Shown here piece after piece: positions 3,001 through 6,000 of a stretch of DNA of 38,066 nucleotides (positions are counted from its first letter, which is position 1; the number at the start of each line of letters is the position of its first letter). Source of the stretch: a plasmid; sequence record NZ_CP140368.1. One strand, 5' to 3'. Position numbers: made by a program.

Positions 3001-6000
3001 TATGATTAAAATCATATAAGTTATTTATTTTATCTAAGATATTTTTAGTGTTTTTGCAATCAAACTTTTCTACCAATAAATTAAATTCATTTTTAAAATC
3101 TTCATTTATTTCAAAATCTTTAAATAGTGCCGATGAAAGTTTTTTATATATACGCTCTTTATTTTCTTTTTCTTTTTGGCGTAATTTTTTTAATTTTTCA
3201 TCATACTCACGCTTTAATTCTTCTATCAATTTGCTTTCTTTAAGCATAACATCTCCTTTGTAATATTTATGTAAATGTATTATCGCAAAGTAGTCTTAAT
3301 GTTTTATAAAGCTTAATAATGTAGAATAGCGATTAATCGAAATAATTTAATGATTGCAGGATAGCCTTTTATTTCTCAAAAAGTTACCTTTTTAAAAAAT
3401 AAAAGGCAAAAACTCTGCGAGGCTCACTAAGGAAGTGCAAATGAATAAAAACAATAATTGCGTCATAAAAGTTAGCAAAGATGATAAAATAATTTTAGAG
3501 TATATAAAATCAGAAACAAACGCATCATATAGTAAAATAATATCTATTTTATTAAAAAAGTTTAATTCTTGTGATACAGATGAGAAGAATAAAATCAATG
3601 ATGAAATATCTAAAAATAAATTTTATACAAGTGATGAAAATAAAATAATCAAACTAAAACTTACAGAAAATGAAGTAAATATTTTAAAAGAAATTTCTAA
3701 AAATACAGGATTTTCAAGTATTACAAAACAAGCAAAATTTTTGCTATTAAACTCCATAAAAAATGAAAAACTTTTTACTAATATAGAAATAGATGAGTTT
3801 ATAAAAACAAGAACAGAAATCAATGCAATAGGTAAAAATATATATCAATTATTGAAGATTCTTAGAAGTGGAAATTCTGTCAAAATAAATGAAAATAATT
3901 TAAATAAAACTATGGATAATATTAGAGATAAAATTGATATATTATCCGATCAGCTTGGGGCTATAATAGAAAAAAATAATGAAAGAATTTAATGTCGCGT
4001 AGTATAAGAATATTTGATGATGAAATAATTGCTAAAAAAGTTTTTACTAAAATAGAAAATGCTTCAAAGCTACCACTAAATTACATCAATAAAAATAAAG
4101 ATAAATACACCAAAGATATAAAAACAGGTAAGCTTGTTAGTAAAAATATGTTTAGAAAAAATACAGAAGTCGTTGTAAAAATTACTTCAGGTTCTAAAAA
4201 TTCTCAAGCACTTTCAAAACATCTTGATTATATTTCTCGTGATGGAAATGTAGAATTAATTACAAACGATTTTGATATATATGCTGGAGAAGATGAGATT
4301 TTAGAAGTTAAAAGAATTTTCAAAAATGAAGGATCTCCTATTCCATTATATAAGGAAGGTGCTAAAGAAAAAAGACATACCATTAATATGGTTTTTTCCA
4401 TGAAAGAACATTCTACAACACCAAAAGAAAAATTACAACAAGCTGTAATTACTACTTTAAAAAGAATGTATCCAAATAATTTTTTTGTAGTTGCTTTTCA
4501 TAATGATACTGATAATCCGCATTGCCATGTTTGCTTGAAAGTTGCGGATAAAAATGGCAAAAGAATTAATCCAAAAAAAGCAGATTTAGCAAATTTAAGA
4601 GCAGAATTTGCAAATGCATTAAATGAGTTGGGAATTGAAGCAAAGGCTACAAATAAAAAGCAAAGAGAAGTAGAAATAAATCAAGAATTTTCAGTTAAAT
4701 TAAATACAAATAATGAGATTAATCAAGCACCAAAAATAAAAATGCATTATTATCAAGTTATGGATTTCGGAGAAGCAAACTATCAATTTAGCACAGATAA
4801 AAATGCCAAAAAAAGTTATTATGTGAGTTATAAAACCAAAAAAGGAATAACTACAATTTGGGGACAAGATTTAGAAAGGGTTGTGAGAGAAAATAAAGTT
4901 TTAAGGGGTGAATATGCAAGATTTAAAATAGTAGGGCAAGAAGAATATGAGATAAAAAGAAAGGCAAAAATTAATAACAAATGGCAAGAAGTTATTAAAA
5001 CACTTAAAAAACCTATTTGGGAAGTATCAGTAATAGGTAGAGAGAAAGATTTAAAACAGATCAACAAAGCCAAAACAACAAAAAAATATAAAATTATACA
5101 AGATAAAGGAGTGAATAATGAGAGAGATTATACAAAACAATATAGACAGAGAGTCTTACAAGAGCTCGGTAATAAATCAACTATCCGAAGAGAAACTGCC
5201 CAAGAAAGAAACTCTATGCGAATATTGTCCAAACAGCCTATGGTTCATAACACAAAACGAACTCAAATGCTTTTGCACATCAATGCACTCAATCAGTTAC
5301 AACAAGGAAAACGAGGACGAACCGATAATAGCTTGCGATGGACAAGTGCTAGGAATAACGAGATTACAAGAAATGGATAATTTATAAAAGAAAGGGAAAA
5401 ATGTAATGAAACAAGAAATTTATACGAGTAAATTTTATATTTCTAAAAGAAATGGAAAGGAGGTTTGTTTTAAATTGGATTTTGAAATAAAAGCATTTGA
5501 AGAAAATCAAAAATTTTATTATGTTGAAATATATGCAATTATAGACTATCAATATTTGAAAAATGAAATAGCTGTTATTCCAAATACTAATAAAAATAGA
5601 AACCATTGGATATTGCGATATGATTTTAATAGTTGGAATTTTCATTCCTCTATAATGCTACATTCGGATTATAGATCTTTAGGGATAGGAACATTCGTGA
5701 TAAATAAAATGCTAGAAATTGCTTTAAATTATATACCAACAGCAAGACTTAGTGGCAAATTAAGTGCAGTTGATGAAGTAAAATTAGAAAATCATATAAG
5801 AAGGGATAAGTTGTATAAAAATTTAGGTTTTGTATTTAATGAAAATAATATAGGTTTTAGTATAAATAGCATTAGTAATTTAAAAATAAGAAAAGATTTT
5901 GATTATATTCAAGAAGTTCGTATTTTTGATATGTGTAATCAATTAGCAGAATTACAATATCTAAAAGCAGGCAATGATAAGTTATTAAAAATTTATAAAG

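What the first reader, a model, noticed from the sequence alone, without database searches (positions are those of the whole stretch)
3318..3410. RP4-like oriT architecture fixes the transfer polarity: the low-coordinate side is the leading region
The minus strand reads 5'-GCCTTTTAT...(26 nt)...ATAAAAGGC-TATCCTG|CAATC-3'. That is an inverted repeat immediately 5' of a YATCCTG|Y nick motif, as in IncP oriT. A second palindrome (CGATTAATCG) follows. If the relaxase nicks there, the minus strand is transferred 5' to 3' towards decreasing coordinates. The 93-aa, 203-aa and HEPN-like genes and the primase then enter the recipient first, and mobC-relaxase last.
Basis: partly seen in the sequence, partly recalled or inferred. 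Interest (0 to 1): 0.55.

Follow-up and report, generated by a model that had tools for sequence, protein, structure and literature searches.

The report
Transfer origin of Campylobacter pTet plasmid
This stretch is very probably the origin of transfer of a Campylobacter pTet-type tetracycline-resistance plasmid, where the plasmid's own enzyme nicks one strand to start conjugation; it is built like the origins of IncX and IncP plasmids, so it is an expected, ordinary feature, though it appears not to be annotated.

Summary
The minus strand reads hairpin then TATCCTG|CAATC. The inverted repeat is larger than reported: 20-nt arms (3364-3383 / 3388-3407) with a 4-nt loop.

The window is a Campylobacter pTet-type conjugative plasmid. 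The site lies between the accessory-relaxase operon (cpp18-cpp17, MobP1 family) and a divergent operon ending in a primase.

YATCCTGY alone occurs at chance frequency. However, this is the only one of 17 ATCCTG sites with a strong hairpin directly 5' of it.

In about 20 relatives from other Campylobacter and Helicobacter species (relaxase identity 97% down to 33%), and in IncX3, IncX4 and RP4, CTATCCTG is invariant. The abutting hairpin changes sequence but stays paired (88.6% paired against 51% in shuffles).

Gene topology matches RK2: relaxase and accessory gene on the hairpin side, a divergent operon 3' of the nick. The polarity reading therefore follows by analogy, not by experiment: low coordinates enter first and the relaxase last.

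Corrections:
- The second palindrome is not conserved.
- The accessory protein is TaxA/DDP1-like, not MobC.
- "HEPN-like" is untested.
- The closest relatives are IncX, not IncP.

It is a new member of a known kind. Interest is low.

The parts
3356..3363 (-). Nick core TATCCTG|C. The predicted nick lies between G3357 and C3356 of the minus strand.
   Evidence: Read directly. CTATCCTG is invariant in 20 related loci. It is identical to the RP4 nick region CTATCCTGC and to the IncX3 and IncX4 sites. The exact nick position is inferred from RP4, from my own knowledge.
3364..3407 (.). Inverted repeat (hairpin). Arms 3364-3383 and 3388-3407, 4-nt loop. Its 3' end on the transferred strand abuts TATCCTG.
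   Evidence: Covariation over 12 outer pairs in 19 lineages: 88.6% paired against 51.2% in shuffles, 80 double-sided changes against 27.7, slid controls at most 54.8% paired.
3413..3424 (-). Conserved box. Transferred strand AGCCTCGCAGAG, plus strand CTCTGCGAGGCT, 5 nt 5' of the hairpin.
   Evidence: Near-invariant in relatives. Identical to nt 7-18 of the RP4 oriT sequence, which was checked against plasmid records, on the same side and in the same orientation. In L025 a variant stays near the hairpin, about 190 nt from the accessory start codon. Its function is unknown.
3441..3992 (+). Accessory relaxosome protein (cpp18, 183 aa), TaxA/DDP1-like with two ribbon-helix-helix-like repeats.
   Evidence: NCBIfam DDP1, E = 2e-8 but below the curated cut-off. 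BLASTP to IncX4 DDP1, E = 1e-5, with one query segment aligning to two DDP1 segments. The start at ATG 3441 matches the annotated 552-nt CDS.
3992..5380 (+). Relaxase (cpp17, 462 aa), MobP1 family (MOBP).
   Evidence: NCBIfam NF041450, 401 bits against a cut-off of 200. Pfam PF03432. Invariant Y80 and H170-x-D-T-x-N-P-H-x-H179. 100% identical to the pTet 81-176 protein.
3322..3335 (+). Promoter -10 (TAGAAT, 3322-3327) and primary transcription start (3335) of the accessory-relaxase operon. The 106-nt 5'UTR runs through the nick core, hairpin and box.
   Evidence: dRNA-seq of pTet in strain 81-176, Dugar et al. 2013, PMC3656092 Table S5. Mapped to the window through the 51-nt sequence given in the table and the alignment.
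3272..3287 (-). Promoter (TGcGATAAT, 3287-3279) and primary transcription start (3272) of the divergent leading-side operon.
   Evidence: PMC3656092 Table S5: start site for cpp19 with a 25-nt 5'UTR. The region is conserved in relatives.
324..3247 (-). Predicted leading region: cpp19 (93 aa, 2966-3247), cpp20 (203 aa, 2326-2937), cpp21 (217 aa, 1669-2322) and cpp22 primase (408 aa, 324-1550).
   Evidence: The primase has DUF5710 and Toprim domains and matches PHROG primase families. The 93-aa, 203-aa and primase genes keep this position down to 46% relaxase identity. The 217-aa gene is patchy. The three small proteins match no family.

Best explanation
This is the origin of transfer (oriT) of a pTet-family Campylobacter conjugative plasmid, of the MOBP (IncX/IncP-like) type.

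Inferred mechanism, by analogy with RP4:
- The TaxA/DDP1-like accessory protein (cpp18) binds the hairpin region.
- The MobP1 relaxase (cpp17) cleaves the minus strand at TATCCTG|C, between 3357 and 3356, and stays attached to the 5' end at C3356.
- The minus strand is then pumped 5' to 3' through the plasmid's VirB/VirD4-type secretion system.
- DNA at decreasing coordinates enters first: cpp19, cpp20, cpp21, then the primase.
- The relaxase gene, accessory gene, conserved box and hairpin enter last. There the hairpin and nick core are available for the closing reaction.

Shown here: the sequence anatomy, its uniqueness in the plasmid, its conservation and covariation in relatives, the shared gene topology with RK2 and IncX, and published transcription starts.

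Inferred only: nicking, the exact nick position, cis-acting function and polarity.
For: 1. The window is a pTet plasmid: 99.4-99.7% identical to pTet records, which PLSDB types as MOBP, MPF_T and conjugative.
2. An intact MobP1 relaxase with its catalytic motifs lies next to the site.
3. This is the only ATCCTG site with an adjacent strong hairpin, in the window and in the whole pTet record.
4. In 41 loci fetched by relaxase similarity alone, nearly every locus with enough upstream DNA carries (G/C)CTATCCTG(C/T). The motif is on the strand opposite the relaxase, 635-1060 nt upstream of it.
5. Each lineage folds a hairpin that ends 0-2 nt from TATCCTG, with z between -1.4 and -7.7 and below -3 in 19 of 20.
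6. Arm sequences differ between lineages but stay paired: 88.6% against 51.2% in shuffles; covariation score 0.878 against 0.21 in shuffles and at most 0.29 when slid.
7. IncX4 and IncX3 plasmids have the same hairpin plus CTATCCTGCA upstream of ddp1-taxC. IncX oriTs are reported within inverted repeats near taxC (PMC3402527).
8. RK2 has the same order: traI and traJ, then box, inverted repeat and nick, then traK-L-M.
9. No terminator-like T-run follows the hairpin, and no Rfam family reaches its threshold.
Against: - No experiment on this site was found in the held literature.
- The nick motif alone is at chance frequency.
- The hairpin and box lie inside the mapped 5'UTR of the accessory-relaxase mRNA. 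Part of their conservation could therefore serve RNA-level or operator functions.
- In the covariation count, the register of the 5' arm was set per sequence from its outermost predicted pair. That favours pairing somewhat.
- Four loci (L019, L021, L034, L037) lack ATCCTG. L019 has a variant, TTTCCTG|T. No site was found in the other three.
- Leading-side genes are transcribed away from the nick. The transferred strand is therefore their coding strand, not their template, unlike the leading regions of F and ColIb. The gene content gives no independent support for the polarity.
Confidence: 0.85

Rival explanations
1. The hairpin, box and flanking motif form only a regulatory element of the divergent promoters. 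It would act as an operator for the accessory protein, or as a structured 5'UTR controlling accessory and relaxase expression. The real nick site would be elsewhere.
For: The primary transcription start of cpp18 maps to 3335. The nick core, hairpin and box are therefore transcribed as a 106-113-nt 5'UTR. Both divergent promoters sit within 85 nt of the site.
Against: - The invariant 8-mer is exactly the MOBP nick consensus. It keeps a fixed 0-2-nt distance from the hairpin in lineages whose hairpin sequence has turned over completely.
- The same module occurs in IncX and IncP plasmids, where the region is the oriT.
- No other candidate site exists in the plasmid.
- A dual role, as oriT and operator, is usual and is not exclusive.
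Confidence: 0.07
2. The oriT is here, but the cleaved bond or the strand differs from the RP4 analogy, so the stated polarity or the exact nick is wrong.
For: The nick position is taken from RP4 by analogy only. The relaxase is only about 30% identical to IncX TaxC and more distant still from RP4 TraI. Leading-side gene orientation does not match the pattern of transcription from the single transferred strand.
Against: - The plus strand carries no YATCCTGY in this region.
- In characterised MOBP, MOBQ and MOBF systems the inverted repeat lies 5' of the nick on the cleaved strand (my own knowledge).
- The RK2 topology is identical.
Confidence: 0.06
3. A motif and a palindrome co-occur by chance in AT-rich intergenic DNA.
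For: YATCCTGY is not enriched, and short palindromes are common.
Against: The joint rarity, and above all the conservation and covariation across species.
Confidence: 0.01

Closest known systems
IncX plasmid oriT next to taxA(ddp1)-taxC (R6K family, MOBP3)
   Same: The nearest relaxase relatives outside Campylobacterota are IncX, at about 30% identity and with the same NCBIfam MobP1 model. Both have a DDP1/TaxA-like accessory gene directly upstream of the relaxase. Both have a long hairpin abutting CTATCCTG|CA on the strand opposite the relaxase, just upstream of the accessory gene. Both backbones carry a VirB-type secretion system and an EexN lipoprotein.
   Different: IncX plasmids are reported to carry two oriTs within long inverted repeats (PMC3402527); pTet has one. 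Hairpin sequences are unrelated. The conserved box is only degenerate in IncX3 and IncX4. The IncX4 genes on the leading side face the opposite way.
RP4/RK2 (IncP-1 alpha) oriT
   Same: The nick region CTATCCTGC is identical. An inverted repeat lies 5' of it: 7 nt from repeat to nick here, 8 nt in RP4. The 12-mer AGCCTCGCAGAG lies 5' of the repeat on the same strand. The gene topology matches: relaxase and accessory gene, then box, repeat and nick, then a divergent operon.
   Different: The relaxase is only distantly related: the TraI_MobP model scores 18 bits against a cut-off of 250. The accessory protein has 183 aa with two RHH-like repeats, against TraJ at about 123 aa. No TraK/L/M homologues were found. 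The box is 5 nt from the repeat here and roughly 45 nt in RP4. The hairpin here is near-perfect with a 4-nt loop.
R64 (IncI1) oriT and Ti-plasmid T-DNA borders (other MOBP nick regions)
   Same: They share the YATCCTG|Y nick core. R64 also has an inverted repeat about 8 nt 5' of the nick. This is from my own knowledge and was not tested here.
   Different: Different relaxase subfamilies and accessory proteins. T-DNA borders have no adjacent hairpin. I recall no box.

Membership tests
MOBP-type oriT (IncP/IncX/IncI-like) | Nick core matching YATCCTG|Y | tested here: met
   TATCCTGC at 3363..3356 on the minus strand. CTATCCTG is invariant in relatives.
MOBP-type oriT (IncP/IncX/IncI-like) | Inverted repeat 5' of the nick on the cleaved strand, ending 6-8 nt from the nick | tested here: met
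   The hairpin 3407..3364 ends 7 nt from the predicted nick. The geometry is kept in 20 loci, with covariation.
MOBP-type oriT (IncP/IncX/IncI-like) | Adjacent cognate MOBP relaxase with accessory gene, the repeat on the accessory-gene side | tested here: met
   The topology equals that of RK2, IncX4 and IncX3.
MOBP-type oriT (IncP/IncX/IncI-like) | Relaxase-dependent site- and strand-specific nicking with covalent 5' attachment | not testable with these tools
   Needs a nicking assay or nick mapping.
MOBP-type oriT (IncP/IncX/IncI-like) | The fragment acts in cis to confer mobilisation | not testable with these tools
   Needs a mobilisation assay. No such experiment was found in the held literature.
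IncX (R6K-type) transfer origin | Two oriT copies within long inverted repeats, one near taxC and one near the replicon | tested here: not met
   Only one hairpin plus ATCCTG site and one box occur in the window and in the complete pTet record. The IncX feature is as stated in PMC3402527.
IncX (R6K-type) transfer origin | TaxC-family relaxase with a TaxA/DDP1 accessory protein | tested here: inconclusive
   The relaxase passes the MobP1 model shared with IncX (401 bits) but is only about 30% identical. The accessory protein hits DDP1 at 34 bits, below the cut-off of 150, and gives E = 1e-5 pairwise.
IncP-1 (RP4) oriT | TraI(MobP)-equivalog relaxase, TraJ, and a TraK-binding region with the traK-L-M leader operon | tested here: not met
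   The TraI_MobP model scores 18 bits against a cut-off of 250. The leading-side proteins match no TraK/L/M families. Only the nick core, the box and the topology are shared.

The most novel reading that the evidence does not exclude
The 12-13-nt box GAGCCTCGCAGAG, 5' of the hairpin on the transferred strand, could be a third cis element of MOBP transfer origins. I know of no description of it, and I did not search the literature for it. It is identical in the oriT of RP4/RK2 (about 60% G+C) and in AT-rich Campylobacterota plasmids, and degenerate in IncX.

Possible roles: a relaxosome protein site, or a partner that pairs its GCAG with the CTGC of the nick core to present or hide the nick. 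In RP4 and in Aliarcobacter locus L019, a longer stretch complementary to the nick core follows the box directly.
Probability: 0.3. Interest if true: 0.4.

Novelty: new member of a known kind. Interest (0 to 1): 0.22.

Why it matters
pTet-type plasmids are the main carriers of tet(O) and other resistance genes in Campylobacter jejuni and C. coli. The oriT module recurs in 188 plasmid records.

A defined oriT and polarity would allow three things:
- A native mobilisable Campylobacter vector could be built.
- Plasmids or chromosomal islands that pTet can mobilise could be recognised.
- cpp19 to cpp22 could be tested as early-entering establishment or anti-defence candidates.

For conjugation biology it adds a well-sampled AT-rich branch to the IncX/IncP type of origin. 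That branch has natural compensatory variation in the hairpin and a conserved box that is cheap to test. None of this is surprising: a MOBP plasmid is expected to have such an origin next to its relaxase.

Tried and rejected
- **Motif enrichment.** YATCCTGY alone is at chance level, so the motif by itself is no evidence.
- **Second palindrome.** CGATTAATCG is not conserved and is at chance frequency, so it is not treated as part of the origin.
- **Second oriT, as in IncX.** None was found in the window or in the full pTet record.
- **Terminator or known RNA.** No terminator-like site was found. Rfam gave only sub-threshold generic hairpin matches.
- **Consensus promoter scan.** Uninformative: 5 sites against 5.6 expected. 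Published dRNA-seq was used instead.
- **Function of the 93-, 203- and 217-aa proteins.**
  - Pfam, NCBIfam, PHROGs and PADLOC gave nothing significant.
  - Homologues are confined to Campylobacterota and carry no domains.
  - AlphaFold models were poor: pLDDT 38 for the 217-aa protein and 64 for the 203-aa protein.
  - The Foldseek PDB search of the 203-aa model and the profile search of the 217-aa protein against PDB sequences gave nothing.
  - 'HEPN-like' therefore stays untested.
- **Literature.** Batchelor et al. 2004, the original pTet/pCC31 paper, is not held. No held paper describes the pTet oriT. One 'anywhere' search for ATCCTG was useless.
- **Orphan copies.** An orphan copy on small Campylobacter plasmids was looked for by blastn and not found at that sensitivity.
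- **Shared 12-mer with RP4.** Taken over the whole window it is not significant: 3 shared against 0.66 expected, and 40% of shuffles have at least one. Its weight comes from its position and its conservation across the family.

Full report
**What the window is.** The region 2900-5400 is 99.4-99.7% identical to Campylobacter jejuni and C. coli pTet plasmids, including pTet of strain 81-176. PLSDB types these as MOBP, MPF_T and conjugative. The genes flanking the finding are:
- A 183-aa accessory gene on the plus strand (ATG 3441 to 3992, cpp18).
- A 462-aa relaxase on the plus strand (3992-5380, cpp17). It passes the NCBIfam MobP1 model (401 bits, cut-off 200) and Pfam PF03432. Y80 and the H-x-D-T-x-N-P-H-x-H motif are invariant among relatives.
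- A divergent minus-strand operon: a 93-aa gene, a 203-aa gene, a 217-aa gene and a 408-aa DUF5710-Toprim primase.

**Checking the observation.**
- The minus strand reads as reported. The inverted repeat is longer than reported: arms 3364-3383 and 3388-3407, 90% complementary, 4-nt loop. Its DNA fold has a z-score of -3.8.
- The motif YATCCTGY alone means nothing here: 4 matches against 2.4 expected.
- Of 17 ATCCTG sites in the window, this is the only one with a strong hairpin directly 5' of it (-13.7 kcal/mol). Only 0.2% of random 59-nt windows reach -12. It is also the only such site in the full 45-kb pTet record.
- The second palindrome (3330-3339) is at chance frequency. It is not conserved in relatives with 90% or 77% relaxase identity.

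**Comparative test.**
- Forty-one loci were fetched from one genome per species using relaxase similarity alone. Relaxase identity runs from 97% down to 33% across Campylobacter, Helicobacter and Aliarcobacter, with a few much weaker hits outside the phylum.
- In nearly every locus with enough upstream DNA, the strand opposite the relaxase carries (G/C)CTATCCTG(C/T), 635-1060 nt upstream of the relaxase start. CTATCCTG is invariant in the alignment.
- Each lineage independently folds a hairpin that ends 0-2 nt from TATCCTG. The z-scores run from -1.4 to -7.7 and are below -3 in 19 of 20.
- The arm sequences differ widely, for example GCCTTTTAT, GGCAAAAT, GCGTTTTAC, GGCAATAAC and GGAAAAAAGG. 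On the 12 outer pairs of 19 lineages, 88.6% of cells pair against 51.2% in shuffles. There are 80 double-sided changes against 27.7. The covariation score is 0.878, against 0.21 in shuffles and at most 0.29 when the partner is slid.
- Caveat: the register of each 5' arm was set from that sequence's outermost predicted pair.
- One Aliarcobacter locus (L019) has a variant core, TTTCCTG|T, with the same architecture. No site was found in three loci.

**Relation to known origins.**
- Outside Campylobacterota the closest relaxases are the IncX TaxC / MobP1 proteins, at about 30% identity.
- IncX4 and IncX3 plasmids show the same module upstream of ddp1(taxA)-taxC: a long hairpin abutting CTATCCTG|CA on the opposite strand. 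IncX origins are reported within inverted repeats near taxC, but in two copies (PMC3402527). pTet has one copy.
- The accessory protein is weakly but significantly DDP1-like.
- My recalled RP4 oriT sequence matched plasmid records at 100%. It shares the nick region CTATCCTGC with the window. It also shares the 12-mer AGCCTCGCAGAG on the same strand, 5' of the repeat.
- In an RK2 derivative the order is traI, traJ, then box, repeat and nick, then traK-L-M. That is the topology seen here.

**Mechanism and polarity.**
- In RP4 the relaxase cleaves ATCCTG|C and stays on the 5' end. The strand leaves 5' to 3', so the traK-side 'leader operon' enters first and the repeat enters last. This is my own knowledge of the RP4 literature, not a test made here.
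- Applied to the window, the minus strand is cut between 3357 and 3356. Decreasing coordinates (cpp19, cpp20, cpp21, primase) then enter first, and the relaxase, accessory gene, box and hairpin enter last. This step is inference.
- The leading-side genes are transcribed away from the nick, so the transferred strand is their coding strand. Complementary-strand synthesis must therefore come before their expression. Almost all other plasmid genes share this orientation.

**Transcription.**
- Published dRNA-seq of pTet in strain 81-176 (PMC3656092 Table S5) gives a primary start for cpp18 that maps to window 3335 on the plus strand. Its -10 box is TAGAAT at 3322-3327.
- It gives a strong primary start for cpp19 that maps to 3272 on the minus strand. 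Its extended -10 box is at 3287-3279.
- Both promoters lie back to back on the leading side of the nick.
- The accessory-relaxase mRNA therefore reads through the nick core, hairpin and box as a 106-nt 5'UTR. The UTR is 113 nt in strain 81-176, which carries a 7-nt ATAATTG duplication just 3' of the nick.
- A regulatory role for the hairpin is thus a live rival or a second function. It does not explain the invariant nick consensus at a fixed distance from a fast-evolving hairpin.

**The conserved box.**
- The box at 3413-3424 is near-invariant in the family.
- In one Helicobacter lineage (L025) a variant stays about 27 nt from the hairpin while the accessory start codon is about 190 nt away. 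The box therefore tracks the origin and not the ribosome-binding site.
- Its role is unknown. Its GCAG can pair with the CTGC of the nick core in the predicted folds.

**Leading-region proteins.**
- The three small proteins match no family and are confined to Campylobacterota.
- The structure models were too poor to use.
- The 217-aa protein has an invariant R159-x4-H164 motif and a patchy distribution. 'HEPN-like' remains unverified.

**Verdict.** The feature is the expected MOBP-type origin of a well-known plasmid family. It is closest to IncX, with striking sequence identities to RP4. No held paper describes it, and nothing is listed under it in 188 plasmid records, though the PLSDB gene table holds only coding genes. 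The original 2004 plasmid paper could not be read. It is a new member of a known kind, and interest is low.

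Noticed in passing
window 3413-3424: The 12-mer CTCTGCGAGGCT (transferred strand AGCCTCGCAGAG) is identical to part of the RP4/RK2 oriT. It is near-invariant in Campylobacterota relatives, and it follows the hairpin rather than the accessory start codon. Its function is unknown.
   Followed up: partly
window 3322-3335 (+) and 3272-3287 (-): Published dRNA-seq starts put two back-to-back divergent promoters on the leading side of the nick. The mob-operon mRNA reads through the nick core and hairpin, and its start (3335) lies inside the 'second palindrome'.
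   Followed up: yes
window about 1599-1661 (+), between the 217-aa gene and the primase gene: Dugar et al. 2013 list a very strong transcription start and a 63-nt sRNA candidate (CJpt1) here, antisense to the leading-region operon. The window position was estimated from the pTet coordinates, not aligned.
   Followed up: no
window 1669-2322 (-): The 217-aa protein (Cpp21) has an invariant RNRSYH (R-x4-H) motif and many closely related variants. It is absent from several otherwise syntenic relatives but present next to distant oriT lineages (L013-L017). That is the behaviour of a mobile accessory gene of the leading region.
   Followed up: partly
L001 4445-4460 (pTet 81-176), against window 3344-3350: Strain 81-176 carries a 7-nt tandem duplication (ATAATTG) starting 5 nt 3' of the predicted nick. 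Sequence beyond CAAT after the nick is therefore not constrained.
   Followed up: yes
L019 2414-2548: An Aliarcobacter relative has a variant nick core, TTTCCTG|T. It also has the box GAGCTTCGCAGAA, followed directly by ACAGG, which is complementary to CCTGT across the nick.
   Followed up: partly
3' arm of the hairpin in L009-L016, L022, L032 and L044: Many lineages, and IncX3, share GGCGT at the inner end of the nick-proximal arm. pTet itself lacks it. This may be a specificity determinant for the accessory protein.
   Followed up: no
window 12882-13395, against pTet 81-176 (L045 1-7600): In the window the SNF2 gene and two small genes are followed almost directly by topoisomerase III. In pTet 81-176 the tet(O) and repA block lies between them. 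The window is therefore a rearranged or tet(O)-less variant at this point.
   Followed up: no
L003 (C. jejuni 414, CM000855.1, 1.71 Mb): A 97%-identical copy of the whole oriT-relaxase module lies in a record labelled as a chromosome. It may be an integrated pTet-like element or a scaffolding artefact.
   Followed up: no
window 1213-1220 (-): A second exact TATCCTGC lies inside the primase gene. It has no adjacent hairpin (-3.1 kcal/mol) and is taken as chance.
   Followed up: yes
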